Source of the DNA: a virus | Taxonomy: Duplodnaviria; Caudoviricetes | Reading direction: 5' to 3' (one strand) | DNA: 64,000 bases | IMG/VR virus record: IMGVR_UViG_3300041964_000148 | Shown: positions 4,602 through 61,184 of the stretch, one piece after another | Position numbering within the stretch: position 1 is the first letter of the stretch | Layout of the letters: the number at the start of each line of letters is the position of its first letter | Notes under the pieces: generated by a model | What the model was told of the DNA's origin: nothing | The model's input: the letters and a program-made list of their open reading frames with translations, nothing else | Database searches by the model: none | Position numbers and translations under genes: made by a program

Positions 4602-4619
4602 ATCACGGTTCTCCGTGAT
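4602..4619. repeat. Dispersed site ATCACGG-TTCT-CCGTGAT, copy 1 of 9
   Basis: Other copies at 10272, 24395, 30682, 38410, 45832, 48373, 57276, 61123. Confidence 0.95.
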
Positions 4620-4623
4620 GAGT

Positions 4624-4662
4624 AAAAACCCCCTTAGATCTAGAAAGATCTAAGGGGGTTTT
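4624..4662. terminator. Bidirectional terminator between convergent genes
   Basis: AAAACCCCCTTAGATCT/AGATCTAAGGGGGTTTT inverted repeat. Confidence 0.8.
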
Positions 4663-4682
4663 GCTTTGGGAACGCAAATCAC

Positions 4683-5321
4683 CTAAAACTTATCCGTCTC
4701 ACAGCCCCAAACATCCCATCCAGGACGTTCTTGCCTTGCGAATAAGTCAATTTTGGAGCCACCTAACGCTTCAGATACGCGATCGCACAATTGATAGAAT
4801 TCTTCAGGTTTCTGGCTATGCTCCCTGCGAGGAGACAGAATGGCGTTGGGTACATTGCGGATTCCTAATGACATAAATGTCTTAGGCTTCCCTTTTGTTG
4901 CTACGAGGAAATGCTCAGTACAATTCCTCCCGTAGTGACCGATGCCGATCCGAATCTTCGGGTCTTCTTCTGTTGATGCCTTGGTTGTCTTCAGCCAGGT
5001 ATAGATTTGCTTGTAGGCAAATCCCCAGGATTCTATACACCGAAATCCTAATGGCAAGTGCTGGTTAGTAACCCAGAGGAATAAATACGCATTGTCAGCA
5101 GCGATCGCACCTACTGGCATTTTCACAATATCCTCATCACTTAAGTTTGGATAAGGTGTCCGCCCTCTGTGAGACTCATCAGTCTCTCGAAGATTAAATT
5201 GCCAGGGAGGATCAATCGAAATGATTGAGTATTCTCCAGATGGCAACGAAGGGAAAGGAGTCAGCAAATTTACAGCTATATTAAGCTTGAGCTGACCCCT
5301 GGCATCGGTTGGTAGGTACAT
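4683..5321 (-). CDS. MT-A70 family N6-adenine methyltransferase
   Basis: IDPPW, LFLWVTN, WGF, RNCTEHFLVA, REHSQKP and KIDLFAR..GWDVWG motifs. Confidence 0.93.
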   Translation of the reverse strand: MYLPTDARGQLKLNIAVNLLTPFPSLPSGEYSIISIDPPWQFNLRETDESHRGRTPYPNLSDEDIVKMPVGAIAADNAYLFLWVTNQHLPLGFRCIESWGFAYKQIYTWLKTTKASTEEDPKIRIGIGHYGRNCTEHFLVATKGKPKTFMSLGIRNVPNAILSPRREHSQKPEEFYQLCDRVSEALGGSKIDLFARQERPGWDVWGCETDKF

Positions 5322-5406
5322 ATTTTATTTGCGAATTTATAGCAATTGTAACATAATACGCTACTCTGTTTTTACTCTGTTTTTATATAAGTCATTGTTG
5401 ACGTAG

Positions 5407-5721
5407 ATGAAGGAAAATAGGCGAGACTGGCGGACGTGGAAAGGCGATCGCACAATCAAGGAATTCTGGAGAGGCGTTCTACGCTCGGTTTCTGATCAAC
5501 AAGAGGATATCCTGGTGGCGATCGCGGACAAGCTTCTTCAACCAAAAGAAATTGCCAACAAAGTGAATACTTCCCAGCAAACGGTAAGTAGCCAGCTTGG
5601 CAAGCTCTATGAGCTGGAACTGGTGGATAATATCCAATTTGGGCGTAATACCTACTATCACGTCAAGGAAGATGCATTGATTGAGATACTCATTGAGAAG
5701 TGTGCCGAGCGTGAGCAGTGA
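5407..5721 (+). CDS. ArsR-type winged-helix transcriptional regulator
   Basis: PKEIANKVNTSQQTVSSQLGKLYELELV..GRNTYY. Confidence 0.85.
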   Translation: MKENRRDWRTWKGDRTIKEFWRGVLRSVSDQQEDILVAIADKLLQPKEIANKVNTSQQTVSSQLGKLYELELVDNIQFGRNTYYHVKEDALIEILIEKCAEREQ

Positions 5722-14430: not shown

Positions 14431-17400
14431 ATGGATGAACATTATGGACTCTATGCACAATTTTCTCTTCAGATCGACCCCCAAACCAAGACAAATATGG
14501 GGTGGGTCAAGTCGCAACTCGGCGGGATCGAGACTGCCGTAGAGTCGTTATCCAGTAGTCTAGAACGCAATAACATCGCATCCCAGTTTAAAGCGGATGC
14601 CACCCAGACGCAAAGCGCCGCCCGACGCATGACAGGCGCTGTTGATCAGATGGGTGACAAAATGAAGGCGGCAGCGAAACGGATTGACCCCTTGAAGAAG
14701 GAGTTCCGAGCATTACGAGCCGAGGTCAAATTAATAGATTTTGGGGACATTACCAATGATCGCCAATTTAAGAAGGCGAATAATGAAGCCCGGAAATATA
14801 TCACGACCCTCCAGCATTTAGAAACTCAGATTCGGGGGGATACGACGGCTGAACGCGAATTTACCGCCCAACTCAAGCAACAGCAACGGGTGATGGCGAC
14901 ACGCATGGAAATGCAGGAGCATCAACGAGTTGCCGCAAAAGCTGCTGCGCGTGTGGGAGAGTTTCAAGTTGTCCAACAGGCAGGGCAACTTCTGGTAAAC
15001 GACAAACTAGTCGGACAGGCAAAGGATGCGATCAATGTCTTTGCCACCTTTGACGACAAGATGGCTGGGGTCGCCGCTATTACGACAGCGACGGGAGATA
15101 GCCTAGATGCCCTGCGGGAAAAGGCTAAATACTTAGGTGCGACAACCCGTTTCACGGCATCAGAAGCCGCCGATGCGATGTCTTTCTTGGGGATGGCAGG
15201 CTTTAAAACAGAAGCTATCCTTTCTGGGACTCAATCCACCCTCGACTTAGCTTCCGCAGGACAACTAGGATTAGCGGAATCAGCCGATATCGCCTCTAAT
15301 GTCCTAAGTGGTATGCAACTCAAGGTTGAAGACTTGGGTCACGTCACAGACGTAATGGCAAGGACAGCAACTAGCGCCAATACCAACATTCAACAAATGG
15401 GCGTGGCGATGTCTTATGCCGCTCCCAACGCGGCTCTATTTGGGGCGACGCTCGAAGAGACATCGGCTTTGATCGGTGTGATGAGTAACGCTGGTGTACA
15501 AGCAGATAAGGCAGGTACAGCTACCCGTGGTGCCTTCTTGAAGTTAGCTTCTCCCGTAAAGGAAGGGAAAATTGCTCTAGCAGAAATGGGCATGACCCTG
15601 GTTGATTCCTCTGGGAACATGAGGAACGTTATTGAGATATTCAACGAACTCAACGACAAACTCAAAATTAGCCCTGACACCTTAAAGTCTATCCAAGACG
15701 CGGGCGAAGATATTGACTCATTGGGAGAAGTGTCTCAGTCCAAACAAATCCAAGCCTTAAAAGGCATCTTTGGAACAACTGGGATATCCGGTGCATCGGC
15801 GGCACTAGGTCAAATCAAAGAATTAAATCGACTGGCGATCGCAACTCGTGCCAGTTCCACCAACACTGAGCAACTTACTCAATACTTTACAGAACTTCGT
15901 GATATAAAAATGAAGCCGGGGCAGGATATTTTTGCTGCAATTATCGAGCAAACCCCCAACTATACAGAGGCTGTTCGCCAGATTGACGAGGCAAACCTCG
16001 CACTGATGCAGGTAAACCTCAAAACACTTAATAGCTTGGATAGTAGTCGTCTAACAGACTACTTCCAACAAGTTAAAGGGATTAGTACTGCGCCTGGGCA
16101 AAGTCTACTTGCTGCGGTTGTAGAAAATGCTCCTGATACTCAAAGCGCCCTCAACCAAGTCTCAATTGCAATGGAGCAATTGGGGATTCAGGTTAAAGGG
16201 CAAGTTGGATCAGCCCGGTTGATGGCTCAGGTAATGGAAAATAGTCTTCCAGGAAGCTTCCGCGCACTTGAGTCAGCACTAGAGGCAGTAAAGGTTAACT
16301 TTATTGAACCCTTGGTTCCATTAATCAGAGGGATAACAGACACAGCCACTAGGTTTGCTCTATTCCTCGCCAACCTTCCTGCCCCCATCCGTACAACCAT
16401 CAGTGTTGGGGCGGCGCTAACAGTGGGCATGGGAGCGTTGGCGATCGCAATTGGGGCAGCGGGCGTCACACTTTTTGGTTTTCAACAAGCTATGGCAGTA
16501 ACGAACCTGGCGTCTTCCTCACTCGCGGCAGGTTTGATACCCCTTACTGGTTTCTTTGATACAGCACAAAAAGCTATTATTGCAACAAATCCATTAGAAA
16601 CTTTCTTCAAGCGTAACACTCAACTTGCCTGGAGATTTTGAGAAAGCGGCAGCCGGCACATTTGACGAAACCATAGCAGGGATGAAGCTATTAGGACGGC
16701 AGGCAATCCAAACCGGAAAGCCTTCCTCGTCATGTCGAGATCCCTAATGCTCTCCCCGATTGGTTGGGTATTGGTGGATTCTTGCTCCTGAATACAGTGC
16801 TAGAGCAGGTTGTCCCAGGTTTCAACTTGCTGGGAACTGTCCTCGGTGCGATCGCTGCTCCTTTCGGTTTTATATACGGCTTACTTAAGGGCATCATCCA
16901 CTCTTTCCTTGATCTTCTAGGCTTAACTGGATCTGGGGCGATGGGTACGATAGCCCCTGTATTTGGCACCATTACTAATGCAATTGAACTTGCAGCTAAG
17001 TCATTTTCCCTGTTTGCCGAATCAGGGGAGCGGATTGGAGAGCGACTGGGAAAGGCAATTACACTCCCATTTGAATTAGCTGGGCAAGCTATTGGCTCCT
17101 CTTGGGATCGAACAATTAGCTTTATCCGAGGAATTCTACGTCCCTTTGCTGACTTTGTTCAGGGCATTGGGCAAATGTTAGTTGGGTTCCTCGCCGAAGC
17201 CTCACCAGGTCCCACTTTCTGGATACGAAAGAAGTGGGCGATGACAGTACACTTCTTGCAAGGACTATTTGAGCGCCTCAAGGTAGGTGCGATCGCCGTG
17301 GGACAGCAGTTATTAAATGCTTTTACTACTGTTCTCCCTCAACTCTCCAGTGCAATTTCCATTGCGACGGTATTTGCAGAACTATCAGGGATTATTAACC

Positions 17401-20400
17401 CTGTACAAGGGTTAGCGATCGCAATTGGGAACACAATTTTTGGTGGCATTGTGGAGTCGATGGGTAAGTCACTAGATGAAGTGATCCCCATCTTTATTCG
17501 CCGCTTCTCCCTTGTTGCCGCGTTTGGTGGGTTCCTTGCTCAACGATTGAACTTCCTCCAGCCCCTGCAAGCTCAAATTATTGCCGGACTTGCGATTATT
17601 ACAGGGCTTTCGACGTTTTACCTAAAAACGTTCAGTTTCGACATTGCAAGTATCTGGCATACTACTGTTCAAATTATCCAAGGGGACTTACAGGCATTGG
17701 CTGGGGTCGCTAAAAATGTTGGGCTTCTTTTAATTAGTTTTCTCGCCGAAGCCTCACCGGGACCTACCTATTGGATTCGCCGGAAGTGGGCGATGACGAT
17801 AGAATTCCTCTCAAGCTTGTTTAAAAAAATTCGCTCCGCCGCAGTTCTTGTCAACCAAGCTTTCTTAGGGATTGGCGATGTCTCATCAGATCAAGGAATT
17901 GTTGCCCGCCAACAAATCCTTGAAGGTGTCGTTCTTAGCCTAGTCTCAGGCGTCAAGCTATTAGGCTCAGTTGCCACTGGAGTAGATTGGGCAATTACTC
18001 AGATTAACCAGTCGGTGGCTTCAGCCATTGACAATCTTGATCTCTTGGGATTTACCCTCCTCACCCTTTCTTCCCTGCCAATGACCCTTATTGGGCAACT
18101 AGCTCAAGGATTTGAGGCGGTACTTCCCGAACTTGCCCTTTTTGTAGGAGTCGGACTCCCGCGAGCGATCGCCTACGCATTGCCAGGAGCAGTCGCGATT
18201 GCAATGAGTACAGGACTCATTCAAGGGCTAGAGAAGGGCTTTGCCACTTTTGTTGCTGGGATGACGGAACGCTCCAAAGTTGCGTCACAACAATTGTCTC
18301 AGATGTTCGATGCCAACTTGAAGCAGGCAATCAACCGAGGACTATCAGAAGGCGTGACAACGTTTGTCCGAAATCTTCCTAGTGTCTTTCCCGGCATGGA
18401 AGATTACCAGTTTACGTTTGATTTTGATCAAGCGTATGCCGATTATGAAAGTCAACGAGAAGCGCGAGTTCAGGCAATTACCTCTTATTTACAGGAAGTA
18501 GGAGTTGTAGCCAACCAGGTAGGGCAACAGCTTCAAGCAGCACTAGCTCCCTTGCTCTCATTTCGGATTGGGGACATATTCCCCGCTCTTAGCTTCCTTC
18601 CTCCCTTAATCCCCCTAGTTACCGCCATTGTCCCTGCTTTTCAATCTCTATCGCAGGTTGTCCAGTCCCCGGCTGTACAGGGAATTGTTAATTTCTTAAC
18701 CGGAACTGTCCTCCCAACGGCATTACAAACATTGCGTGCGATCGCTTCGACGGTTGGTTTGGTTTTTAATGCTTTTATTTCACTCCCCCTAACTGCTGCA
18801 CTGATCGTAATTACTCGTCCCATTGTTTCTGCCTACCGAGAACTCCTGGCATTTCTCCCGCAGATTCCTGGGATACTCGGACGAGCGATTGTTCAACTTG
18901 CCCGAACAGCCGCTACAGCCGTGGCTAATTTACTTGCGCGAATTCCCTATATTGGGGAGACCGTCTCTCGTGCATTCTTGGGAACCGTAGAATTCTTGAT
19001 TGCAGTCACTCCGGTATATTTCCGACTACTGAGAGGACTATTTGAACGCTATTTCTTGAAGACAATTCGCCCATTACTTACTAGGTTCCAGCAACTATTT
19101 GGTCAAGTTGCCCAAGGGATTGTTTACGCCTTAGAAAGGGGATTTAAACCATTAGGTACACTGCTATTCCGAGCGCTTAATCCAATGAGCGCTTTCAAGC
19201 TAATTGGGACATACATCCGTACCAAGGGCTTCGCCGGACTGTTTAAACCTGGGTTGTTCATGCTCAACCCATTTGACTTATTCTTTGGGGGAATTCCAGG
19301 GATCTCTTGGGCAGTTAGAACAGCCGCGACAGCGTTCTATCGCATACCCTTCCCCGCCGGAATAATCGATAAGAAATCGCGAGAATTATTTCAAATCTTT
19401 GCAGGCTCAGAAGCCTTCCTGGAAGCAGAGCTTAAATCCCGACGACTAGGGCGAACCATGCTCGTCTCGATAGAAGATATCTTGAAAACTCAGCCAGCGA
19501 TTGGTCGCTTCCTAATACAAATCCTCCGAGGGGTGTTAATGATCAACCCTCTCGTCCAAATCATTGGTCGTATTGCCCTAACTACAATGTTTTGGTACTC
19601 GGCATTGAAGCCGATTACACCGGAGATGTTTGAGGCGATCGCTGCGACAAAGATGCTGGGGCTTTCCCTTTCTCCAGTCGCAAGTATCCTCAAGGGAATG
19701 CGCTTCGTGTTTGTTGACATGAACGAAGCCTTTATGAGGTTTGCTCGTGGCATTATCCCTTTCATGCGCGGAGTACAGAACTTCTTTAATGTCTTAGGAA
19801 CAATTACAGGCGTAGTTGTCCACGAGACTGCCGGAATTACAAGTATCCTCTTAAACTTATTTAAAGCCACATTCGGAAACCTAGGCTTACTTGTCGCTAT
19901 TGGTTTTGCTGGCGCGATTGATGCAACGTTAATTGGATTCCGAGCGATCGCCCAACTAGCACGTCTTAAAACTGAGCAGTATGGGGATGCTTTAGTTGCC
20001 CTATTTCAGGGAAATATTGGTCCACTACTTGGACAGATTGCTAGCGACGTAATGGGTGTCGTTGGGTTTATATTCGAGCAAACTATTGTGCGGGTTACGA
20101 AGGTAGCACTTAGCCTTGCCTCTACTGTGGGCGGTGCGATTCGAGCGACATTCCAAGAAATTGTCCGATTTATCCGTGACCCGTGGAATGAAAGTATCCG
20201 CCTCCTTAACTTGCTTGATGCTGCGGTAGATCGCGTACTAGGGAATATTGCAAGGACGATTAACGTCTACATCCAGCAACTTCAGCTCGACAGGCTTGCC
20301 CGTTTCCTCTCTCATTACTGGGTACAGATTGCGGCGATCGCAGACGTTCTCCTCGCCGTATATGGGGTGCTTAATCCCATGCAGGCGGCAATCTCTGGAC

Positions 20401-23400
20401 TGATTGGGTTAGGGTTATTTCTAATTCAGGAGTACCGGACAGGCTTCCAAAACCTAGATGCGTTGATTCAAGGATTGGCGCATCCCATTGAGCTTATTAC
20501 CAATGCCATTAAAGCAATGGTGGCGGCGCTGGGCATCTATATCCCACCGGATCTAACCAACATCATTGCTAATGTTACAGAGCAATTTATTAAATCCCTT
20601 CCGATTATTACAGGGGGAGTATTCCTGATTGCCCTGCTCATCAAACGCAACATCGGCGAGGCATTTAGCACTGTGACAGGTGGGGTAATGAAGATCGTCG
20701 GGGGACTGATGCAGGCGGTAGATGCGACACGAGTTTTTGGGGGTGCAATTTCCGACGTAGCACAAAGTCCTAAGGTACAAGCAAAGGTTGGCTCTCAAGT
20801 CCACAAAGTCCGTCGGCAAGAATCTGTGTTGGGCGTCCGCAATCCATTCGCCTATTCCCAAAATGAAGATCAACAGAGAAGAGCCGTTGCGCTTGGGGAT
20901 GAGCGGGTGGCAAAGAGTCGGGCAGCCCTACGGTATCAGGATGAGATCAACAAGAGCCTACAGAAGATTGTTAAGGAGGAAGAGGAAGAAATTAAGCGGT
21001 TGGCGCGATCGCGCAATGCTCGTGACCAAATCATGGCATTTGGAGGAAAGCTCCAGCGCCCCGATGGCTTCTCTTATGAAGTAGCGCCCTTACTAGAGAA
21101 GAAGAAGGGGCTGCTTGGATTAAATCGGCTGGAGTTGAGCGAGACAGGCAAAGCTGCGGTTGCAGATCAAGCAAGGAGAAGAATTACGTCTCCAGACTCC
21201 GAGTCTGCTATGGGGACTCGAATGCAGGCAGCAAGAAGATCTGGATTAAGAGCCGCATTTGAAAGACACAGTGGAGAGCCTATTCCAGATGACGTTCTCA
21301 GGAAACTAGCGCAGCAGGGAGATTACGGCATCACCAATCTCATGGGAGCCTTCCAGAAGGCGATGGAAAATCTTCATGTTAAAGATTTCCAAGTTAACAA
21401 GTTGTACGTTGCCGAATTTAATCGACCCCAAAATTTCCCAACCCAAACACCTATCGACTCAAACGCTTTTGATATCCAACTCAATAGGTTTCGATCGAAT
21501 CCTATTCATGCCAACAAAGAAATTATCAAAAAAGCTAAAACTGCTTCAGAAATTCAAATTGAGATTGACCAAGCTACTACCACTGGGGATACAAGCTATG
21601 CAAATTTGATTGGCAAGTTTAAACAAAGACTTGAAAAGATGTTTGAGGTTCCTGCTGGGAATTCGGCTATTGTAAGCTCTAATGTTATTGAGGAACACGC
21701 AAAGACGCTATCCGCTAAATTCAATTTAAGTGAAGAGGAATACCAAAAAGCAAGAAAAGCTGTTATCACTGACTTGCTTCAGAGACAGGCAAAATCTATT
21801 GGCAAGACTGTAACTGACTTCAATGATTTTGAAGAGGCGAATATTGAAGCCCTGAAGCAAGCTAACCGAAGAGTTGAAGGTTTTCATCCCATCGCGACAA
21901 ATACTGATGTCTTAGCTCAAGCGGTTCGCAATATAGCAGGGCAAACGCAAGCAGAAGTAGATCAACTTAATCAAACTAGGCGCTCCTTTTTTAGTAGCCT
22001 ATTTGGCTTCACTGGAGTTCCTCAACTCATTGAAAATTTCCAGTACAATCGTCGCCTCTTCCGTCGTAGTCAACAAATTTCGCGACGGGTTGAGGAAATG
22101 GCGAGGCAAGAGTCAAAAGACAAAGCATCAGCACAGGCAGCGCGGCAAAGGGGACTAGAGGCGCTGATGTCTAGATCTGGTTCTGGCTATGACTTCCACA
22201 CTCAATCCGCACAATTTTATGCCTCCAAACAAATCAACGCCCAAGAACAGGCATTCATTGAATCTTGGGTAAAAAATCGTAGCTTCAAAGTTGACATTAC
22301 TCAACACCAAGCTTTCCGCCCAGAAGTTGACAAGATAATTGATAGATTTAAGCAACTTTCAACCAATTTAACTTTAAATACTGTTGATGACGTTAAAAAG
22401 TTCCGACAGACACTTAATGATGTATCTACACAGATACAAACACAACTATCAAAAGACGAACAAACTGCTCTTAAAAAGCTAGAGCAATACCTCCTACACG
22501 GAGCATCTGAAGCTCCGAAAGGAGGTCAACTATCTTTTGGTGAGCGAGATTCTATCCTCGCGGCAATTAACAAAAGTATTGCCAATAATAAAGGAGCCTT
22601 CGGCATAACAGGAGATCACAAGGATATCTCCAAGGCAAGTTTCAAGAAGTTATATGACCAAAATGAGGTCGCCATAAACCGCATCATTTCACAGTTCGCA
22701 GCAACGGGTGAATTCGTTGCCAAAATTGGGGGCAAAAATGAGTATATCGAAGGGGCGTATAAAGAGATAGAGAGAAAGCTTGGACTAGGAGGAGGTGGAA
22801 AGGGAAGTTCACTACGACGGATTCAAGACATTAAGTTCAGTAATACGATTCGTCAACTAGGCATTAATTTTGGACTCTTTGTTCAAAGCATCGAAGAGAA
22901 TGTTGCAGAGTTTCGGGAGCGGATTTATAGAGGACTGGATAGCTTTGAAGGTTGGCTTGAATCCCATCTCCGTTTCCCCAGCCTAGCTACTGGAATTGTT
23001 GATCTCATTCGTCGTCCATTTGAGTTCCTCTCAAACAATATAGAAGCTATCTATACAGCACAGAAGATAAATATCCAAAATATGGCAAATCAGATTAGGG
23101 CTGATTTTGTCGGGTCTAATGTTGTCAGCCGAATTAATAACCTTAATCAGAAATATAAAGAAGCAAGAGAAGCCTCACTTCAGACTATCCTGCAATCCTC
23201 CAGGGATGAACGAATAGCTAAACTGGGTCGAAAGAATGCTTTCCAAGGGGCACAGCTAGGTCCTGTGTGGGAAGAGTTAAAGAAACGGCAACTTAGTCAA
23301 GCTCAGTCCGGTCAAACTGTAAGCGCATTGATGCGTGGGGGAATGAGCGAACAAGCTGTTCGTTCCATGTTAGACAGGGAACTGCGACGACAGGGACTTT

Positions 23401-26400
23401 CTAGGGATCAGGTTACAACCGAGATAGATAAGGTTCTTGCTAGCCTTGGGAATCAAGCTCGCTATTCAGTGGGCGACATCTTGAAGATGCGAGGCATTGA
23501 TGCAACTAAGGTCTCCAAGGCGCTTGAGTCTGCTCTTTCACTAGAAGCTAAGGCAGTAGAGCAAATCCTCAAGAACCCAAACTATACGGCGCGAGCTGTG
23601 GGTCCATTCCAGCTCTTTATGGTTCGTGACATAGTTGGCATTCTAGGCGACACCTTCCGAGGAATTGGAGGTACGATGGTGCGTCTTGTTCGCCCTGTTG
23701 CAAAAGATGTAACAGCGGCATTTGGTAGTAATGTGTTGACTCGTATCGCTAATGTGACCCGTGAAATTAATAAATTCTTAGAGATTGGAGCATCTCGATT
23801 AGAAGTAGGAATTATTAAAGTTGTTGGGCGAAACCCGTTAAGTCGGGCAATTAATCGCTTTGCGAGTAGCCTTGGTGGACAGACAGATCTACTAGCTCGG
23901 TTTTTTGACAAACAAGCTGGTATTGTTGCCGATCAAGCTCCTAAAACCTTTACGGTTCGGATTGTTAATGCCGTTCAGTCCATCTACAAAGCTGTTTCAG
24001 ATAATCTTACAAAAGCTTATAACTACGTTCAAGCTCAAAAAGGCATCCTTCCTGCGATCGCACGGCTTATGGGAGGCGTTCGAGATTTCTTCAAGGGATT
24101 GTTCCGTAACAAAGAACTTGAAAAAGTTCAACAACAGATTAGTCAACAACGAAGGGCGTTTGAATCTAACGATCCAAGAAAGTTCAAGGGTGAAGAGCAG
24201 CAAGCAAGAGCAGCTTCCCGTCGTCGAAGGATAGCCGAACAACTTCCGGCATTAGAAGAGAAACGCAGGCTCTTAGCACGTAATCCAGTCCAGAAAATGG
24301 CTGATTATGTAAGCTCTAAAAAGCTTCCAGAGAGAGGATTTAATCGGATAGGACAAACCTTTGAAGGGATGAGTAGTCGCCTCTCTGAGTTCGCCACGGT
24401 TCTCCGTGATAAGCGAGTAAAAGCAGAGGAAAAGCGCCGAGGCGGGGTTTACGATCCAGACTTATATGATCGCGTTTCGCCAAGAGGTCAAAGACGCGGG
24501 GCAAGTGGGCTGGGACAAACGATGTCGCCCCAAAACAACGACCAAATGGGAGGCGTCCGACCAAGAGAAGGGATGCGATACATAGGGCGAGGGATTGTAG
24601 GTGCAACACAAGACATCCTGCCCTTGACCACCAAGATATTTTCCGACTTGCTCTCGGCTGGAGCTAAAACAAGCGATCGCCTGGGACAATTCTTCCGAGG
24701 AGCGGCGCTAAAAGTTCAAGGGGCATGGTGGCAATCGGCGACCGACATCATGGGACGTAGTTGGCGAGCAATGGTTACAGCAGCAAAAGGAGTCGGAAGC
24801 TTCATTATTGCCCGATTAAATCATGGAAGTGCCGACGTAACGGCAGCAGCCTGGGATCGCACTCAGCATTCAGTTTCCCAGGATATGCAACAGATGGCTG
24901 AAACTGCTCAAGCCACTGGACAACATATTAGCGGAAGCATGGAGCAATCGGCAACCCGCTCCGTTGGGTTCTTTTCTCAACTAGGAAACAGCATTGGCAG
25001 AGTCGGCAAAGCCGGGATGGCGATTGGAGGAGCAGTTACAGGCATAGGTTTCGGAGCGCAGACAGCCGTATACTCCCTCTCTACAATGGGATTTGTTAGC
25101 GAGGATACATCCGAGAAACTTCGCAAATTCTTTGAAATCTTCACTCTTTTTGGTGCCGTAGGCGGAATAGTTACTCCGCTCTTTGCCGCAGTAGCATCTT
25201 CTTTGGGAGCCATTGGCGCGATCGCCGGAACAGTCGGCACAGCAATTGTCGGGGTTGGCGGTGCGATCGCTTCTGTTGTTGGACTAGGAAGTGTCGCCTT
25301 CGCCCCAATTATTTTAGGTATTGCAGCCGTTGGGCTTGCATTTGCTGGATTGTACTTAGCGATTAAATCCAACTTCCTCGGAATTGGCAATATACTTACT
25401 ACCCCTATCCATTGGATCGAGGCAGCATGGCAGGGATTCGTAGATCGATTTGGGGCAAGGTTGATGCCAATCATTCAACCTGCATTGAATGTCGCACAGG
25501 GTTTAATCAACGCATTGAACCATAACCCCACCCTCCGCATTCCAGAAGCTTGGGAGGCTATGAAGGAAAGAATCGGGGCTGTATTTAACTGGATGTCTTC
25601 AACAGCCGGGGCAATTGGCAATGCGATCGTTGGATTCTTTAGCCCTATCGGTAAATTATTCTCACACGGCGGAGTACGCGAACAGCCAGTAATTCAACCC
25701 CGCGAAAATAGCATTCAACAACTTGGACATAAAGTTCAAGAATCAACCTCAGTAGTCACTGAAAGAGCAAGTGGCTTAGGTCGTGCGGTTAATGATCTAG
25801 CTGCCAAAACCCTTGTTGATATCCTGGCAAAAATAACATTACTTGTCGGAGGAATAGTTCTATTTCGCCAACAAGTTGGGAAAGATATTGCCAATCTGGG
25901 CGCTCAGGTCGTATCGAGCCGCAGTATGCCTTCTTCTTTGATTAATGCGATTGGCGTAAGTGTTTTGGCTAAAACTTTTGCTACCTCACTTGGTATAGCC
26001 AAGATCGTTAGGGGCGTCACATCTCTAGGTAAAATATCCGAAGATCTGCTTAAGCCAATCCAGAAGTTAGCTTCAAACATAGGACTGAAAGCTAATACGA
26101 CAGGAAGACGACCCCAAACCGCACTAGAGTTAACATCCGGAACACTCAAGGGACTAGGAAAACTAGGGGACAAACTTCGACCTATTGCTGGATACATACC
26201 AGCGATTGCACTCGCTGCACCTGATGTAGCAATGTTAGGAAGCGGACTTATTGGATTAAGCTATGCCTTTAGCGAATTTCCTGTCTTCCTGTTAAAGTTC
26301 AAGTCACTTCTTATGTTGGCTGGTGGCTTTGCCTCTGCGATCTCTGGGGTTGTGCTCTTACTGGAATTGGCAACCAAACAGACAAATGTACTAGGAGTGC

Positions 26401-29400
26401 TTGTTGGTAGTCTAGTATTCGTTGTTAAAGCTTTTGCCGGAGTATTCAAGGGCTTTCAGAAAGCTTTTGCTGAAATTTCAAACCCCCTGAAAGCCTACTA
26501 CGATGACTTTATCGCCACAGTCCAAAGGATGGGTAAAGCGGGCGATGATTTTGGACAAAAACTTGGATACGGGCTAGCTCAAGCTCTAATTTATCCTTTA
26601 AACTTTATTTACCAAGCTTGGCAGGGTTTAGTAGACTGGTTCGCACGACTCCCTTTGGTATCACACGCACTAAATATAGGGCAAGGGTTGGTAAATGCTC
26701 TGAACCACGGCGCGGCGGACGTTACAGCCGATGCTTGGGAGTCTACTGAGCAGCGAGTAGGAGGAGTTTTTGGTTCCTTGGCGTCAGCCGCAAGTGGTAT
26801 CGGCAATACAATCGCTGGGGCTTTCAAGCCAAGACCTCAAAAGAATAAAGTATTGCAACCCCAAAGTCAAGTAGAAGAGAACCCGGAGTCTCTTGGCTCT
26901 GGAATCATTAAGAATGCAACAGTAGCCATAGCATTTCTGCGCGACAAAATTACAGCTCTTATTAAGTCAATCGGGCTATTAAATACAAAGGTTGACTATC
27001 AGTCTCAATTGCTAAAACATCAGCTTCGACTACAACAAGTCAATTTAGTTCGTTCTAGTTGGGGTATTTTAACGAATCGAGAGAGGAATAGTAACTTATC
27101 TGGACGCGCCTCCAATTTGCCGTGGGTGCAAAGGCGTCAAGCTCAAGTGCGAGGAATTGGTGGGCTTAAAGAGGCGGCAGAAAACCCGCGTCTGCGGCGA
27201 CTTAAGCAGTTAGGAGGACTGGTTGGGGAGTTAACTGGACTAAAAGGGGGAGCGATCGCTTCCTTGCTAACAGGTATTACCTCGATCAGTGGGGCGTTAG
27301 GTTTACTTGTCCTAGCATTCTCTACTGACTTTTTAGAAATCCGAACTAAGACCGTTAAGCTTGCCCAATCTATGCAGGGTGCATTCAAGGGGGCAATTGA
27401 CTGGATTACAGGAGCTTGGACTGGCTTTAGCAATTGGTTTGGAAAGATGCCTTTAGTTCGCCAAGCCCTTGCAATTGCTCAAGGTTTAATCAACTCATTG
27501 AACCATTTCCCAACGGTCAAGATTCCAGAAGCGTGGGAAGAAGCAGGCAGGCGGATTGTCGGACAATTCCATTATTGGCTAAATGTTGCTAAATGGGTAG
27601 GGGTTGCCATTGCGGGCACCCTGATTACGGCATTAACTGCAATTGCTGCGGCGACAAATCCGGTAATGGCTGCAATCACGGGATTTACTTTAGGAATAAG
27701 CGCACTAGCTTTCTTTTCCTCAAAGATACTAGCAGGATTTGGTGCTGTTCTTGACTGGTTTGGGAATCGCATTCTTGCCTTAGATGTCAAGTTTGCTTCG
27801 GTAAACATAGGTGCTATAGCAGGACCATTGTTTGGCTTAAGCACCATATTCGCCACCGTAACTACCGCAGGAACCCTACTGGCAGCGGTTCTAACAGCAC
27901 CTGTATTTGCCCCTTGGATTGCTGGAGCTACAGCACTAGGAGGAGCGATCGCCGGAGCCTTGTTCTTGTGGCAGCGTTTCAGAAAGCAATCTGAGATACC
28001 TCCGTCCGTAGAACAACCGACTCCCACCCCAGGATTTAGAGAACGAGTGGGGCAGAAGGCTCAGGGAGTCCGAGATGCGATTGTTGAGCAAGGTGTAAGG
28101 GCTAAAAATGCTGGAATAGGTGCGGCTAATGCAGTTGTGGAGCAAGCTACGAAGGTTAAAGATGCTGGAGTAGGTGCGGCTAATACAGTGGCTCAACAAT
28201 ACCAGTTGTTCGCTTCGGCTGCGGCTGACGTAAGCTCTATTCGTCAAAGCTTACAGGCGAGTTCTTCTCTAGGAGATCTAAACAGCAGCTATCTGTCTAA
28301 AATTGTTGATTTAATTCAAAATCTTGTTGATTTTAACAAGCCGAAACCTAGTCCGGAGCCACCTCCAATGGTTACAGGACAGTCGCTTATCGTTGGCTCC
28401 GGAGAAGTTAATAACCCGAATGCTATCCAGAACAAAGTAGGGGGGATCGGTGCGGCTATTCAAGATACTGTTTTGGGTCAAAACGCTTTTGGAAAACTTC
28501 TTTTAAGTCCTATTGCCAGAGCGCCGTTAGATGCAATGGGATTAAAAGATACCCAGAAACGGATCACAAAGGAAAGAGAGCGTGAGCGAATCAGGCAATC
28601 ATTAGGACAACAGAAAACTGGTGTCCAATCCTCACTACCTGGTCCCCTGGGATTATTTAGCAAAAAGGATGAGTTTCAAGAAGCAATTCAATCCCAACTT
28701 CAGGGGCAAGAACTGAAATTAGCCGAAAAAGTAATTAGTGGAGCGCAAAGCTCTAGCGCCCTTGTCCGAGATCAATACAAGGGTTTGGTCACGACGATCA
28801 CTCAAAACGGACAAGAGCAAGTTGTCCTAAATGAAAAAGGGCAAAATTACTTAGAAGGACAACTTGCAGGACTCATTAAGCAGCAAACAGGATCGTTCTC
28901 TGAAAAAGAATTGGCAGTTACGGCTCAGAAAGCGGGATTCAAAGGAACTCCCGAACAATTAAGGCAAGCTGCCTTGGAGGGACTAAGAGGGAAAGATAAG
29001 GATCAGTTGTCCGCTCTAGAGCAAGCCGCAGGCACACTTCCTGGGACGAAGGTTGATTACCAGGAACTTGCTAGCGACAGTTTGTCACGGTTAGTTGAAA
29101 TCGCCCAGAACATCTTCACTTGTGTTGACTACATCGCTGCCCTTCTACAACCAAAATCCAAGGTTCCTAAGTCTCTAGCTTCAGGGGCATCAATTCCCGT
29201 TGATTTCCAACCTACTCCACCTTCTCCTCCAGCAGAGCCAAGTCTTGTATCTAAGGCGGGAGATGCAATCAATAACACGTTATCCTCTCTCGGTGTCCAC
29301 GCCAAGACGCCACTCAGTACCGGGGCAGCAGGAGCTGAATCAATAACAGAGGTTCTAACTCGACTTCGTAATTCTCTGTCAACGACCAAAGAGCCAGTAG

Positions 29401-35400: not shown

Positions 35401-36362
35401 TATCGGGCATGACGTTCCTGATCTCTGCTGCCCTGCCTGCGTTAATCAGCGGCTTATTAACAGTTGCAACGGTTGTCATTCCCTTGCTGGTCAGCGCATT
35501 CTTGTTTGTCTCAACTGTAGCTATCCCAGGCATTATTAGTGGATTAACTGCGATCGCTACAACAGCTATCCCACTGGTAATGACTGGCTTGTCTGCTGCC
35601 ATTCCCTTTATCATCGCTGGGTTTGGCTTCATTGCGGCGACAGTTATTCCCGCCATAGTTGCTGGAGTAATGTTCATTGCAACCGTCGCCATTCCCGCTA
35701 TGATTGCAGGAATTGCCGGACTTGTAACTGCCGCCATTCCACTACTCATAACCTTTTCTCCAATAATCCTGATGGTTCTCGCAGTTGTCGCTGCGGTTGT
35801 CCTCGTTAAATTAGCTTTCGATGCTGTCGTTGGGGCAATACAGAAAGTCATTCAGGGAATAGCGAGTGCAATCAGCTCAGTTGGGCAATTTTTCCAAGCT
35901 CTGCCCTTGATCGGAGGATTATTTGGAGGACAAAAAAATAATGCGGGCGATGGTTCCAACATTCAGGAATTCGCCGGTGGAGGTTTAGTCCTAGGGCAAT
36001 CCGCTCAAGCTGTCCCGGTGATTGCTCACGCGGGGGAATTTGTCATGACCGAATCGGCAACCCAGGCTAACCTAGGAATACTGCAATATCTTAACGCCGG
36101 AGGGAAATTAGCATTACCTGCCCCTAACGTTGGGGTAATGCCACCCATGCCCTTAAGGTTGCCGACTCCAGCCGCAGCCCCAGCGCAGGGGGCAGGAAGT
36201 GGGGCTGTGGTGATCGAAAATGTCAACATCAACTTCGAGGTACAAATTAATGCCAACAATGGAGTCGAGGCAGGGGATGAATTCTTGAGATATATCGAAG
36301 ATCCAAGGTTTAAAAAAGCAGTAAGACAAGTGTTAAGAGAATCAGTTGAAAGGATGAAGTAA
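14431..36362 (+). CDS. Giant phage tail tape measure protein (about 7,300 aa), interrupted here by three small indels at about 16610-16763
   Basis: TP901-type core (LREKAKYLGATTRFTASEAADAM..AGTATR), long amphipathic repeats, C-terminal FAGGGLV..AHAGEFVM. The gap between the two track ORFs reads as continuous protein-like sequence after three frame changes. Confidence 0.88.
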
Positions 36363-38409: not shown

Positions 38410-38433
38410 ATCACGGAGAACCGTGACATAGAA

Positions 38434-42061: not shown

Positions 42062-42066
42062 ATACA

Positions 42067-45646: not shown

Positions 45647-45905
45647 TGTCGTGAGCTTGGTGTGTTACATATGTTGTTATATTGTAACCTTTCAAAGTGT
45701 GTGTGAACACAATTGCTCATCATCATCTTCATGTTGTCGTATATCGTAGGCGATCGCATAGCTGAAGCCGATTAATGACAAAATCCAAAAGAAACAAACC
45801 CCTTTGGGTATATGCCGGGGTTTTTTGCTTGATCACGGTTCTCCGTGACGAAGGTCTACACGTCATCCTTTGTTACAATGAGGTTATATAGCACAAAGCA
45901 AAGCC

Positions 45906-48373: not shown

Positions 48374-48589
48374 TCACGGAGAACCGTGACAAGGTTGTTT
48401 CCCATCATCACCATCATCAAGACGGCAGTCCTTGTGGCTATAACCGACTATGCGATCGTCCACAAGTATCTGCAAGCACTCAGAAATCGGCGAAACCACT
48501 ATCCGTCTCCGGCAAAGCAAGCAACGGTTCCCTGGTGGGCGAGTTAGAAATTCATCCGAGAATGGCTGATTATTAAATCGACTAGGCAT
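48374..48589 (-). CDS. Small putative Zn-binding protein
   Basis: ATG overlaps the upstream stop; CLLC..HKDC; stop codon supplied by the dispersed 16-bp site. Confidence 0.5.
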   Translation of the reverse strand: MPSRFNNQPFSDEFLTRPPGNRCLLCRRRIVVSPISECLQILVDDRIVGYSHKDCRLDDGDDGKQPCHGSP

Positions 48590-49492: not shown

Positions 49493-49558
49493 GTTTAGCT
49501 CAGGTTTAGATCATGTTTAGGCTGTATCTAGCCTAAGTTTAGGCTAGATACAGCCTAA
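49493..49558. repeat. 11-bp-phased array (GTTTAG-type), six units
   Basis: gtttagctcag gtttagatcat gtttaggctgt atctagcctaa gtttaggctag atacagcctaa; related arrays at 49157, 50514 and 51143. Confidence 0.8.
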
Positions 49559-57082: not shown

Positions 57083-57425
57083 TAAATACCTATTTCTTTC
57101 CTTTTATTGCTTAATCCCATTGTAACTTAATAGTAATGTATATGCAAGTATATTGAGGTAATCTGACACAAAATACAATCTCGCTACACATCCAAAACAA
57201 AAGCCACTGACATAAAGTCAATGGCTTTTCATTTAAGCTAGCTACCTATTACCTATTATCCCCCACTTCGTACTCATCACGGTTCTCCGTGATGAAGTCC
57301 AAAACAAGTTTCGTACTAGCAAAAACACTCATTACAGAACCCATTGTTGCGAAATACACTCAGAAAGGTGGAGTTTCCTCTGCCCAGTGATAGGCAAAAT
57401 AAGAGAAATCTATCTTTGTTGAAAC

Positions 57426-57691: not shown

Positions 57692-58255
57692 AGTACTAAC
57701 GGAAAGAATGGGCATCTAAGTATTACCAATTTAGGTAAAATTCAGATGCGTGGTCAAGCAAGAACTTGGGGGACACCAACAACTTGTACGATTCTTTTTC
57801 GTAACGGGAAGTGGTTTACTTCTATTACGGTTCAGTGTGTTCCAGTACGAAGTACAAGCACGGATTCAGTTGGCATTGATTTAGGTTGCAAAGAGGCAAT
57901 TACCTTATCAACTGGAGAGAAGATAGCCAAACCTGACTTTATCAAAGAAGGTCGGGTCAAGGTAAAGGTTGCGTCCAAAAATCTACGCCGTAAGCGCTCA
58001 CCTAACTGGAAAAAGAAGGTCAAGGCTTCACGCAGATGGAAGAAAGAACGCAACAAAGTTTCTCAATTACAGAGGAAGGTAACTCGCCAGAGAGAGGATT
58101 GGTTGCATAAAACCACTAGCAATATAGTGAGCAGTAATAGCCTAGTTGCTGGGGAAGAGTTGAACGTTAAGGGCATGACCGCCAAAGCCAAGAAGGGTAA
58201 ACGCAAAAAGCAGAAAGCTGGTTTAAATCGTTCTATCCTAGATGTTGGCTTCGGA
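57692..58255 (+). pseudogene. tnpB: Internal fragment of tnpB
   Basis: NGKNGHL..MRGQARTWG, RuvC-I GIDLG, QREDWLHK, RuvC-II EELNVKGM, GLNRSILDVGFG; lacks N-terminus, Zn finger and RuvC-III. Confidence 0.9.
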
Positions 58256-58478
58256 GCAAGCCTACTACCAACAGGAAATAAACGATCTAAAAACTTACAA
58301 TCGACAGTATTCTGAACTAATAGAGAAATTTCAAGAGAAGGCAGCTCAAGCGGAAGATTGTTTTCAAAGGTTGGCGCAAGAAAACACACACCTTCGCGCC
58401 CATTTAGAACAATCTCAGGCAATGTATGCTCAACTTCTGAAGGTCGTCGAAGGTGCGATCACGGCAAAAGAAACTTAA
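58242..58478 (+). CDS. Coiled-coil protein, probably the remainder of the gene hit by the tnpB fragment
   Basis: Gln/Glu-rich heptads; terminator at 58502-58545. Confidence 0.5.
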   Translation: MLASEQAYYQQEINDLKTYNRQYSELIEKFQEKAAQAEDCFQRLAQENTHLRAHLEQSQAMYAQLLKVVEGAITAKET

Positions 58479-58563
58479 CAAAGTCGTCCCAGCTAAACAA
58501 TAAGAAAAGCCGCAAGACAATTGAATTGTCTTGCGGCTTTTCTTGTTACTGTTAATATTTAAC

Positions 58564-60141
58564 TTATCCTACGCTTAAGAAAAGTGGAGTTTCAATCGCT
58601 CTTTTTTGTAGCTCCTTCAACTTCTCAACCCCCTTAACCGTTATCCGAATCCGATGAGTTTTCCTCTTCTTTATATCGTCGCCCTCACCCTCAGCAGGAG
58701 AATACTCTAAAAGCCCTTCTCGAATTGACTCATTAACATTATGGCTAAATGCTGCTTTCCATTTAGGATTAGAGTTGTTGCCTGTATTCTCAATCAATTC
58801 TTTGTCTTGTTCAGTGAACGATAAACTCTTCTCTGCCTCCTCATACAATTCCCGTCGAGTCATAGCTTTAGTACTGAACAGAGCTAAAACTTGAGATAGC
58901 AATCTCTCAACATACCCTTTAGACAGGGAAATGGGATGTGACTGAGTTTTTGATTTCTTCAGACCAGGGAATGAGAGAGACTTGGCGGTTTTAGGTACTT
59001 CCTTGAAAGGAAGTGTTTCCAGCTTGCTGGTTGCTTCTCTGGCTTTTTCTCGACCCAGTACAGTAAGTTGATAAACCACTTCGCAACTACCTAAATTAGA
59101 GGGTTCCTCATAAGCCTCTACCAATCCATCTTCGGTCAATAACTCCAAGCAAAGATTGTATCCAACTATCCAACTCCACACACATATAGAAGTGTCAGGA
59201 GCCTGGAAAATCACTGAAGAACCCGCTACAGACCAGCCCCGCTCATCGAAATGGAAGGTTTCACTACCTTTCCGAGCAATAAAGGTTTCTGATTTTGGCT
59301 CATCAAATTGGAACAGTATGTAGAGTATTTGATCGCGAAATTGCTTGTAATACTCCCCAGCATCGAAGATGTTGATCCTAGCTTGTCGAGCTTTTTTCTT
59401 TCTTAGTTCATTCCATGTTGTCGAGATTTTAAATGCCTCCTCAGCATTCCCTTCCGTAACAGCTTGTTGTAAATTTGCCTGAAGCAATTCGTCTACCTTT
59501 TCTATGGTCAGGCAATCAATAATCGCATCATTCAAGAAAATATTATTACCCATCGGTCTTTCCTCTTTTAAACTAACTTGATCTGCTACTATATATCCTT
59601 CTAATCGCACCTGTGGATGCTCAATAACCTCCCACGTCCCTTTCCCCCCATAAAACTCTACGCACCAGTTGCGAATGGTTGCCGTAAGAGATCGCGCACC
59701 AAACCACCACGAAACAGGAATGCCTGCTTTGAGATAATCATTAGTTCGCGACTGCAATCCATTCTTGCCGCGCACGATGATTGGGGAAAGTTGGCATTCG
59801 TAGGCGGCAAGGATTGTTTCCCCCCTAATCGCCGCCACATCGGCAATGCGCTGCCTCTTCTCCAATCCCTTCTCAAGTTGAATTCGAGCATCCGGGAAAA
59901 GGGACAGGAGTCGCTCACCCAACAATTTCTTTCCCAGTTCATGTTCGGGGGAAACTTGGCTAATAGAAGCTAATTTTGTGTAGCACTGGGAGTTGGGTTT
60001 GTGACAGAAATGATCTACCCACCCAGCCCGCTGCCGAAGGTAAACTTGGCAATGGCAATCCGGGCATTCCCATTGGTCATCATCGCCCGGATTAGAGGCA
60101 GCGATCGGCTCCTTAAATCCTGTAACAATAGCTCGTTGCAT
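58564..60141 (-). CDS. CoiA-like Zn-finger/PD-(D/E)xK nuclease with C-terminal winged-helix (Mrr_N-like) domains
   Basis: CPDC..HFCH, SPEHELGK, IADV..YECQLSPI, RTNDY..VSWW; probable ATG at 60141. Confidence 0.78.
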   Translation of the reverse strand: MQRAIVTGFKEPIAASNPGDDDQWECPDCHCQVYLRQRAGWVDHFCHKPNSQCYTKLASISQVSPEHELGKKLLGERLLSLFPDARIQLEKGLEKRQRIADVAAIRGETILAAYECQLSPIIVRGKNGLQSRTNDYLKAGIPVSWWFGARSLTATIRNWCVEFYGGKGTWEVIEHPQVRLEGYIVADQVSLKEERPMGNNIFLNDAIIDCLTIEKVDELLQANLQQAVTEGNAEEAFKISTTWNELRKKKARQARINIFDAGEYYKQFRDQILYILFQFDEPKSETFIARKGSETFHFDERGWSVAGSSVIFQAPDTSICVWSWIVGYNLCLELLTEDGLVEAYEEPSNLGSCEVVYQLTVLGREKAREATSKLETLPFKEVPKTAKSLSFPGLKKSKTQSHPISLSKGYVERLLSQVLALFSTKAMTRRELYEEAEKSLSFTEQDKELIENTGNNSNPKWKAAFSHNVNESIREGLLEYSPAEGEGDDIKKRKTHRIRITVKGVEKLKELQKRAIETPLFLSVG

Positions 60142-60264
60142 TGCGCTTGTTTTTTTGCGTCCAATTAGATATTCGCACAAATATTAAAAGTGTGATCGTA
60201 TTTTTGTGATTAATTGCCGAACACGGGGAAGCAATTAAACTAGGAATAAATTATATGAGTTAAT

Positions 60265-61116
60265 TTGATGCCTCGTTCCTACCGAGATATCGTAGCCTAC
60301 GGCGATTTTAGTTTGCCGATGCTCACAGAAGGTCTATTTCTCCGAATAGGGAAAGACCATAAAGTAGAAGGAATTTTATTGGGTAGTGCTTCATTGAGGG
60401 CTGCTACAGACTTTGAGGCAGCAGGAACCGTAAAGGCTCACGAGACTTCAACCAATCATCCCTTGGCTACACCCTCAACGCCAGGATTAATGGCTGCCAC
60501 CGACAAAGCTAAACTCAACGGCTTACCCTTATCAGCCGACGTACTCACTAAAACGGGAAACTTGTCCGATGTTTCCGATAAACCTACTGCGAGGTCTAAC
60601 TTGGGACTAGGTAGTGCGGCGATCGCCAACGCAACCGAATTTGAACCGCGTGGTATTACGGCAGCTCACGCAGCAGGTTCTGGTCCCGGTTCACACTTGC
60701 CAAGCGGAGGAATTTCTAACAGCGAAATAGCAGGAAATGCGGCGATCGCAGACTCTAAAATCAACTTTGCGATACCGGCTCGAATTTCCGCAACTTACGC
60801 AACCGGATGGAACACCCCAGCAGGCAATGACGGGGTATCTTTTCGGAAATTTGCCAACAAAATGGTTCAGCTTTCCGGCGTAGCGGCAAAGAGTACTTCT
60901 CCCAACAACAATGATTTGATCTGCACCCTTCCCGCTATCTGTCATCCCGACAGCATAGTTCGCTTCGTAATTTACGGCTCTAGTTCCCTTGGTATGTTGG
61001 TTCCGGCATTTTTAACAGTAGGGACAAATGGCGAAGTAAGACTTCTGCTAGGAGGAACGACACCCGCTCAATTCATAGCAATTCCAAACAACTCCATATT
61101 CTTCGCGGCGCCTTGA
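60265..61116 (+). CDS. Tail fibre-like protein
   Basis: ATPSTPGLMAATDKAKLNG, NLSDVSDKPTARSNLGLGSAA, AAIADSKI, VQLSG..ICTLP..P. Confidence 0.8.
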   Translation: MMPRSYRDIVAYGDFSLPMLTEGLFLRIGKDHKVEGILLGSASLRAATDFEAAGTVKAHETSTNHPLATPSTPGLMAATDKAKLNGLPLSADVLTKTGNLSDVSDKPTARSNLGLGSAAIANATEFEPRGITAAHAAGSGPGSHLPSGGISNSEIAGNAAIADSKINFAIPARISATYATGWNTPAGNDGVSFRKFANKMVQLSGVAAKSTSPNNNDLICTLPAICHPDSIVRFVIYGSSSLGMLVPAFLTVGTNGEVRLLLGGTTPAQFIAIPNNSIFFAAP

Positions 61117-61184
61117 TTCTTCGTCACGGAGAACCGTGATAGACAGTTCGTGCATCGTAACACCTCAAGGTAAAATGCTATGTG

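What the first reader, a model, noticed from the sequence alone, without database searches (positions are those of the whole stretch)
4602..61140. Nine dispersed copies of a quasi-palindromic site with an invariant asymmetric core (CACGG-TTCT-CCGTGA)
Seen: copies at 4602, 10272, 24395, 30682, 45832 and 57276 (TTCT on plus) and at 38410, 48373 and 61123 (AGAA on plus), spaced 2.5-14 kb apart. Two lie inside the tape measure gene, both encoding TVLRD. Five sit at or within 10 bp of a stop codon, and one of these supplies the TGA. Orientation does not follow transcription, so it is likely a DNA-level signal. A given 15-mer is expected about 1e-4 times in both strands of 64 kb. Inference: a genome-wide protein-binding site such as a parS-like partition or occlusion site, a stoperator-like repressor site, or a recombinase/packaging signal. 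It is not canonical parS (TGTTTCACGTGAAACA).
Basis: partly seen in the sequence, partly recalled or inferred. Interest (0 to 1): 0.8.

Follow-up and report, generated by a model that had tools for sequence, protein, structure and literature searches.

The report
Phage-private 16-bp dyad scattered genome-wide
An uncultured, roughly 245-kb virus of cyanobacteria carries dozens of letter-perfect copies of one 16-base mirror-like DNA word about every 6 kb, its relatives carry differently spelled versions, and the word is most likely the docking site of a still unidentified virus protein.

Summary
The window holds nine exact CACGGTTCTCCGTGA. Eight of them are the 16-mer TCACGG-TTCT-CCGTGA. No copy has 1-2 mismatches.

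The DNA is a HIP1-rich cyanophage-like genome of about 245 kb with a roughly 7,200-aa tape measure. It is not a chromosome. I verified five more copies to the right of the window. The scan's own notes, which are unchecked, list at least 14 more.

- **Not a host repeat.** The core occurred once in 401 cyanobacterial genomes, which is chance level.
- **Placement.** Copies favour intergenic DNA (9 of 14) and often sit just after stop codons or next to terminators. Spacing is more even than random. Orientation ignores transcription.
- **Not insertions.** The two tape-measure copies align with homologues without any gap.
- **Relatives.** One sister phage has TCCCAG-GATA-CTGGGA four times in 21 kb. 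The Nostoc plasmid pC052_F is a cultured relative. It has TTA-CGG-AATT-CCG 14 times.
- **Probably not parS.** pC052_F has ParAB, but its parB holds a separate, unique palindrome.

Best reading (about 0.4): a lineage-specific site for an unidentified phage DNA-binding protein, comparable to stoperators or KorB operators. A self-copying HIP/REP-like mini-repeat is the main rival. The scan noted this motif before on overlapping windows of this genome.

The parts
4603..4618 (+). Dyad copy TCACGG-TTCT-CCGTGA. The arms extend to 11 bp. An A7/T7 run makes it a minus-strand terminator-like hairpin. It lies 9 nt after the stop of gene 2365-4593.
4625..4665 (.). 17-bp-stem terminator hairpin directly next to copy 4603. 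The same order, stop codon then dyad then terminator, recurs in the sister contig L158/L227.
10273..10288 (+). Dyad copy between two minus-strand genes: 8673-9833 (RRXRR/HNH) and 10498-11385.
24394..24409 (+). Dyad copy inside the tape measure ORF. Its outer T is replaced by C. It encodes TVLRD and is not an insertion, because homologue P0140 reads TELRD there with no gap.
30682..30697 (+). Dyad copy inside the tape measure ORF. It encodes TVLRD. Homologues read TEFRD (P0140), TEVRV (P0141), AELKP (pC052_F) and VEIGG (L230), all without a gap.
38411..38426 (-). Dyad copy in a 25-nt spacer between two plus-strand genes. In relative L231 the same two genes overlap by 8 nt and have no spacer or dyad.
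45833..45848 (+). Dyad copy in the divergent intergenic region between the RelB-like gene 45176-45646(-) and gene 45906-47132(+). It lies just after a terminator-like hairpin.
48374..48389 (-). Dyad copy whose flanks extend the stem. A T7 run follows on the minus strand, so it looks like a terminator. It supplies the TGA of a small ORF.
57277..57292 (+). Dyad copy between the GH19 gene (55244-56758, -) and the TnpB fragment (57746-58315, +). It shares a 24-nt identical block with copy 4603.
61124..61139 (-). Dyad copy between convergent genes. It lies 7 nt after the stop of gene 60265-61116 and 46 nt after the terminase stop. Sister contig L159 has CCACGG-AACT-CCGTGG right after its terminase stop.
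14431..36362 (+). Giant tape measure. It appears as two ORFs in different frames in this window and carries two of the copies.
5407..5721 (+). ArsR/SmtB-type winged-helix gene. It is a DNA-binding candidate only, and its own promoter lacks the dyad.

Best explanation
The 16-bp dyad is most likely the recognition site of a phage-encoded, probably dimeric, sequence-specific DNA-binding protein. That protein would act along the whole roughly 245-kb genome. It may work as a global operator or transcription roadblock, or as an architectural mark.

Shown:
- The copies are exact.
- The motif is private to the phage.
- Copies prefer gene ends.
- Spacing is even.
- Orientation is free.
- The in-gene copies arose without indels.
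- Relatives carry differently spelled sites built on the same CGG-N4-CCG frame.

Inferred:
- A protein reads the site.
- Site and protein co-evolve.
- Sites are added by copying short patches of 24-26 nt and are then kept by selection.

The protein is not identified.
For: - **Exactness.** In 102.6 kb there are 12 exact 16-mers, 2 with one outermost mismatch, none with 2-3 mismatches, and 7 with 4 mismatches, which is the chance number. So there are no decaying copies.
- **Phage-private.** The 14-mer core occurred once in 401 cyanobacterial genomes of the order that holds the closest named TnpB hosts. The reversed control occurred twice. That one hit is unrelated DNA.
- **Placement.** 9 of 14 copies are intergenic although about 93% of the DNA is coding.
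- **Spacing.** Spacing is more even than random, with CV 0.54 and P about 0.01. The two tape-measure copies break what would otherwise be a 28-kb gap.
- **No insertion in genes.** The in-gene copies replace existing codons with no indel.
- **P0140 peptides.** P0140 reads TELRD and TEFRD at the same two tape-measure places. These are exactly the two orientations of the L159-type dyad CACGG-AACT-CCGTG read in that frame. This is an inference from peptides, because the DNA was not obtainable.
- **Dialects in relatives.**
  - Contig L158/L227 has TCCCAG-GATA-CTGGGA four times plus one CCACGG-AGAT-CCGTGG.
  - L159 has CCACGG-AACT-CCGTGG.
  - pC052_F has TTA-CGG-AATT-CCG 14 times, against about 0.2 expected.
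  - None of these is common in sampled host genomes.
- **Flanks.** Flanks extend the dyad symmetry, with 45 complementary pairs against 24 expected.
Against: - No binding protein was found. The ArsR-type gene's own promoter lacks the site.
- Ordinary operator sets vary more than this one does.
- Pairs of copies share 24-26-nt identical blocks. This points to copying, which a selfish repeat would also show.
- Some copies have copy-specific stem extensions of 11 and 14 bp. That fits hairpin structure better than duplex reading.
- More distant relatives G403 and G406 have no such motif.
- Only about 40% of the genome was readable here.
Confidence: 0.4

Rival explanations
1. A self-propagating mini-palindrome, comparable to HIP1, to cyanobacterial small dispersed repeats, or to REP elements. 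It would spread by short-patch copying or biased repair. Its effects, such as serving as the top of a terminator stem, would be incidental.
For: - Pairs of copies share 24-26-nt identical blocks.
- There are no near-miss copies.
- Copies lie after stops and beside terminators.
- One junction has an extra 25-nt spacer with the dyad where a relative has overlapping genes.
- Contig L227 holds two different hairpin species.
- The genome is already HIP1-rich and encodes several orphan methylases.
Against: - There are no decayed copies at all.
- The in-gene copies are not insertions.
- Spacing is even.
- There is no GTAG/CGTC tag and no conserved asymmetric flank (tag definition from the abstract of PMC3733652).
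- No RAYT or TnpA gene was seen in the 102.6 kb read.
- Host-type TnpB loci lack the motif.
Confidence: 0.28
2. Dispersed centromere (parS-like) sites of a phage-plasmid partition system, as in the N15 prophage.
For: - The cultured relative pC052_F is a circular 223-kb plasmid with ParA/ParB.
- 5 of its 14 dyads lie within about 22 kb around parAB.
- The site is a 16-bp dyad.
Against: - The parB gene of pC052_F contains a unique, perfect 12-2-12 palindrome that is the likelier parS.
- No ParA/ParB relative was found in the 102.6 kb of this phage.
- The site is unlike canonical parS.
Confidence: 0.1
3. An RNA-level hairpin: a 3'-end stabiliser, a processing site or a terminator core in a phage that punctuates its operons with RNA elements.
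For: - The hairpin is stable in either orientation.
- Three or four copies carry T-runs.
- 8-9 of 14 copies read UUCU in the likely mRNA.
- Unchecked scan notes report ribozymes at gene junctions elsewhere in this genome.
Against: - Both orientations occur.
- Most copies lack a U-tract.
- An invariant stem and loop sequence is not needed for structure alone.
- The copies in the middle of the tape measure gene have no obvious RNA role.
- There is no Rfam match.
Confidence: 0.1
4. A cleavage, nicking or recombination site for a phage nuclease (HNH, Rep_1 HUH or terminase), such as T5-style nicks or module-exchange hot spots.
For: - Several HNH/RRXRR genes and a Rep_1 gene are present.
- Sites lie at gene junctions.
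- HUH enzymes read hairpins (own knowledge).
Against: - No site is linked to any nuclease gene.
- There is no strand bias.
- Metagenome copies from several samples are collinear and 99.99% identical, with no rearrangement at the sites.
Confidence: 0.08

Closest known systems
Stoperators of Cluster A mycobacteriophages (PMC9283540, PMC6550527)
   Same: Both have many near-identical short sites spread across a phage genome. Both sets often lie in short intergenic gaps near stops and starts. In both, the spelling differs between related lineages.
   Different: Stoperators are asymmetric 13-mers read by a monomeric repressor. Their orientation follows transcription (the last point is from my own knowledge). 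Here the site is a 16-bp dyad, orientation is free, and no repressor is known.
KorB operators (OB) of IncP-1 plasmid RK2 (own knowledge)
   Same: Both are about a dozen or more identical palindromic sites, roughly every 5-6 kb on one replicon. Some lie near promoters and some lie inside genes.
   Different: OB is a perfect 13-bp palindrome read by a ParB-family protein. No such protein was found here, and the spacer here is asymmetric.
Dispersed centromere sites of the N15 linear plasmid prophage (own knowledge)
   Same: Both are 16-bp inverted repeats scattered in a phage-plasmid genome.
   Different: N15 has only four sites, and they are bound by SopB. In the relative pC052_F the ParB gene has its own separate palindrome.
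HIP1 and the small dispersed repeats of cyanobacteria (Elhai et al. 2008, reference seen; content from own knowledge)
   Same: Both are very short, exact, highly iterated palindromic words in cyanobacterial-type DNA, including inside genes.
   Different: Those belong to host chromosomes. This word is absent from the sampled hosts, is longer than HIP1, and is far rarer per kb.
REP/REPIN elements with RAYT (PMC3116915, PMC3733652)
   Same: Both are hairpin repeats after genes, in either orientation, with lineage-specific families.
   Different: This motif has no GTAG/CGTC tag and no RAYT was seen. It is shorter, has no degenerate copies, and sits on a phage.

Membership tests
Stoperator/immunity-repressor system | Asymmetric site read by a monomeric repressor | tested here: not met
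   The site is a 6-4-6 dyad whose flanks extend the symmetry. Definition from the abstract of PMC9283540.
Stoperator/immunity-repressor system | Site orientation follows the direction of transcription | tested here: not met
   Both orientations occur relative to flanking genes: 8-9 against 4-5 of 14.
Stoperator/immunity-repressor system | Cognate repressor gene on the phage | tested here: inconclusive
   Only an ArsR-type and a RelB-like gene were found in the window. Neither is linked to the site, and most of the genome was not readable.
ParABS partition | ParB-family gene on the replicon | tested here: inconclusive
   No tblastn match to pC052_F ParA or ParB in 102.6 kb. The remaining roughly 140 kb is not held.
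ParABS partition | The site is the palindrome associated with parAB | tested here: not met
   In relative pC052_F a unique 12-2-12 palindrome lies inside parB and differs from the dispersed dyad.
REP/REPIN | GTAG or CGTC tag at one end of an imperfect 20-40-bp palindrome | tested here: not met
   No conserved asymmetric flank was found. Definition from the abstract of PMC3733652.
REP/REPIN | Chromosome-wide family with a RAYT gene | tested here: not met
   The core occurred once in 401 cyanobacterial genomes. No Y1 transposase appears among the called genes of the loci.
In-frame inserted palindromes (Rickettsia RPE type) | The copy adds residues relative to homologues | tested here: not met
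   Alignments at both tape-measure copies are gap-free.
Intrinsic terminators | GC-rich hairpin followed by a T-run | tested here: not met
   Only copies 4604, 48374 and 83705 carry a T-run, and copy 45834 merely follows another terminator.
HIP1-type host palindromes | Over-represented in the host chromosome too | tested here: not met
   The true host is unknown, so this is 'not found in those searched'.

The most novel reading that the evidence does not exclude
Each lineage of these giant cyanophage-plasmids marks its own DNA with a private 16-bp dyad that a matching lineage-specific protein reads. This would be a self-identity code used to silence, replicate, package or exclude genomes when relatives co-infect. 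Sites would be kept at fixed places, even inside the 20-kb tape measure gene, while their spelling switches (TTCT, AACT, AGAT, AATT spacers; CACGG or CCCAG arms).
Probability: 0.15. Interest if true: 0.85.

Novelty: new variant of a known kind. Interest (0 to 1): 0.58.

Why it matters
If a protein reads this site, it would be a genome-wide control or organising system in an undescribed family of 220-245-kb cyanobacterial phage-plasmids with micrometre-scale tails. One member of that family sits in a cultured Nostoc.

The lineage-specific spellings would give a natural series for studying how a site and its reader co-evolve, as stoperators did for mycobacteriophages. The exact word is also a handy marker for binning these phages in metagenomes.

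If it is instead a self-copying 16-26-nt palindrome, it would be among the smallest such elements known, and it would be on a virus.

Tried and rejected
- **Collection scans.** IMG/VR scans of three 16-mers gave singletons only.
- **Known phages and plasmids.** Nucleotide searches against INPHARED and PLSDB found no match. The terminase has no protein match in INPHARED.
- **Literature.** A full-text search for the sequence found nothing.
- **Genome access.** No whole genome is held, and metagenome records are not searchable.
- **A false lead.** The motif AATAAACCTTTA in relatives G404/G405 first looked like a dialect. It sits 0-70 nt upstream of start codons and follows gene direction, so it is a start-associated/RBS motif. 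I rejected it as an analogue.
- **Distant relatives.** G403, G406, L230 and L231 have no comparable dyad.
- **P0140 DNA.** The relative tape measure P0140 could not be fetched. It is over the 5,000-aa limit and is not in IMG/VR.
- **IS-end origin.** Rejected, because host TnpB loci lack the motif.
- **RNA annotation.** No Rfam families and no tRNAs in the window.
- **ArsR-type gene.** No relatives in the other contigs, and no dyad in its promoter.
Full report
**Observation.** The 15-mer CACGGTTCTCCGTGA occurs nine times in the window at the stated places, against none in shuffles. No copy has 1-2 mismatches. Eight copies are the 16-bp 6-4-6 dyad TCACGG-TTCT-CCGTGA, and copy 24395 starts with C.

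**What the DNA is.**
- The window has 60 HIP1 octamers, so it is cyanobacterial-type DNA, but its genes are phage genes.
- These include a GpA-type terminase (61185-63467), a PhageMin_Tail ORF followed by a 6,532-aa ORF, HNH/RRXRR nucleases, an MT-A70 methylase, DUF932 and GH19.
- The same sequence, 99.99% identical, is assembled from several metagenomes in contigs of up to 245 kb.
- It has no nucleotide match in PLSDB or INPHARED, and its terminase has no protein match in INPHARED.

**More copies.**
- Walking right through metagenome loci gave a contiguous 102.6 kb.
- It holds further copies at window-scale positions 73563, 74342, 83705, 95359 and 99862. Copy 74342 has an outer base changed.
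- These match an earlier unchecked note, e1-5710702. That note lists seven more copies beyond this stretch, and note e1-5691677 implies about seven to the left.
- Over the 102.6 kb the mismatch spectrum is bimodal: 12 exact, 2 with one mismatch, 0 with two or three, and 7 with four, which is the chance number.

**Host test.**
- The TnpB fragment points to Microcoleus- or Coleofasciculus-like hosts.
- The 14-mer core was absent from a Coleofasciculus genome.
- It occurred once in 401 genomes sampled across that order, while the reversed control occurred twice. The single hit is unrelated DNA.
- The true host is unknown, so the result is 'not found in those searched'.

**Anatomy.**
- Nine of 14 copies are intergenic although about 93% of the DNA is coding.
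- Four copies begin within 10 nt after a stop or supply a stop. Two genic copies end within 21 nt of a stop.
- Orientation relative to the flanking genes is mixed.
- Spacing is more even than random, with CV 0.54 and P about 0.01.
- Flanks extend the symmetry towards TTCATCACGG-TTCT-CCGTGATGAA, with 45 complementary pairs against 24 expected. Copy 73563 has 14-bp arms.
- Three copies carry T-runs and look like terminators. Copy 4603 abuts a second, 17-bp-stem terminator.
- Pairs of copies share 24-26-nt identical blocks, which suggests copying of a slightly longer unit.

**Insertion or not.**
- Homologous giant tape measures (P0140, P0141, L230, pC052_F) align across both in-gene copies without gaps. 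So these copies overwrote existing codons.
- P0140 reads TELRD and TEFRD at the two places. These are what CACGG-AACT-CCGTG and its reverse complement encode in that frame, and that is the dyad seen after the terminase of sister contig L159. This is an inference from peptides, because the DNA could not be fetched.
- At one junction the situation differs. This phage has a 25-nt spacer with the dyad where relative L231 has overlapping genes.

**Relatives.**

| Relative | Terminase identity | Dyad found |
|---|---|---|
| Contig L158/L227 | 76% | TCCCAG-GATA-CTGGGA, four exact copies in 20.9 kb, after stops, before terminators and in a divergent spacer; plus one CCACGG-AGAT-CCGTGG |
| L159 | 80% | CCACGG-AACT-CCGTGG directly after the terminase stop |
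| Nostoc sp. C052 plasmid pC052_F (223 kb, circular) | 53% | TTA-CGG-AATT-CCG, 14 copies against about 0.2 expected, three of them inside its 8,170-aa tape measure at other positions |

- pC052_F is syntenic with this phage over the tape measure, terminase and nrdJ.
- Neither variant is common in sampled cyanobacterial genomes.
- More distant relatives lack such a motif.
- An AT-rich motif in G404/G405 is start-associated and is a different thing.

**Partition.**
- pC052_F encodes ParA and ParB.
- Following a lead from note e1-3349874, I found a unique perfect 12-2-12 palindrome inside its parB. That is the likelier centromere, so the dispersed dyads are probably not parS.
- No ParA/ParB relative lies in the 102.6 kb read here.

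**Verdict.**
- The motif is real and phage-private. It is under strong constraint or active homogenisation.
- It belongs to a family of lineage-specific dyads built on CGG-N4-CCG.
- A site for an unidentified DNA-binding protein fits best, at about 0.4.
- A self-copying HIP/REP-like mini-palindrome is the main rival, at about 0.28.
- The parS, RNA-hairpin and nuclease-site readings are less likely.
- No described family's defining features are met.

Noticed in passing
window 14431-36362: The tape measure is split into two ORFs in different frames here. Other assemblies call one gene of 7,196-7,312 aa. Relatives have tape measures of 5,977-8,170 aa, some with a DnaJ domain. By the usual length rule this implies a tail of about 1 micrometre.
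   Followed up: partly
whole window: There are 60 HIP1 octamers (GCGATCGC) in 64 kb of phage DNA, about one per kb, as in host chromosomes.
   Followed up: partly
NZ_CP040278.1 (L234, L244): The 'plasmid' pC052_F of Nostoc sp. C052 is a 223-kb relative of this phage. It has a terminase, an 8,170-aa tape measure, nrdJ and ParAB, so it is a likely phage-plasmid in a cultured strain. A unique 26-bp palindrome lies inside its parB.
   Followed up: partly
G405 (IMG/VR 3300035685_000002), L178: AATAAACCTTTA occurs 49 times in 103 kb. It sits 0-70 nt upstream of start codons and follows gene direction, so it is a start-associated motif.
   Followed up: partly
window 37509-38408: This gene is a 259-aa ORF in the window but a 299-aa gene in other assemblies. 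The difference is one indel. Gene 51312-52252 is likewise split here.
   Followed up: no
L229:13400-14653 and window 57746-58315: An intact TnpB has a dyad copy 28 nt after its stop, and a TnpB fragment has one 468 nt upstream. This may reflect IS insertion next to hairpins.
   Followed up: partly
L229:14854-17207; L160:4195-5638: The phage carries two adjacent C5 DNA methylase genes. It also carries a Rep_1 rolling-circle initiator next to a YoeB toxin gene.
   Followed up: no
L227:7199-15255: The sister phage contig carries a cluster of heptosyl- and glycosyltransferases, PfkB and SIS-domain genes next to its terminase.
   Followed up: no
window 49518-49557: An 18-bp palindrome, TAGGCTAGATACAGCCTA, is present twice, 22 nt apart. 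It lies in a region that another note flags for 11-bp phased repeats.
   Followed up: no
L184:5727 (window scale 78056): CACGG-TGTA-CCGTG, with the same arms but another spacer, lies inside the ribonucleotide reductase gene. It could be chance or a second species.
   Followed up: no
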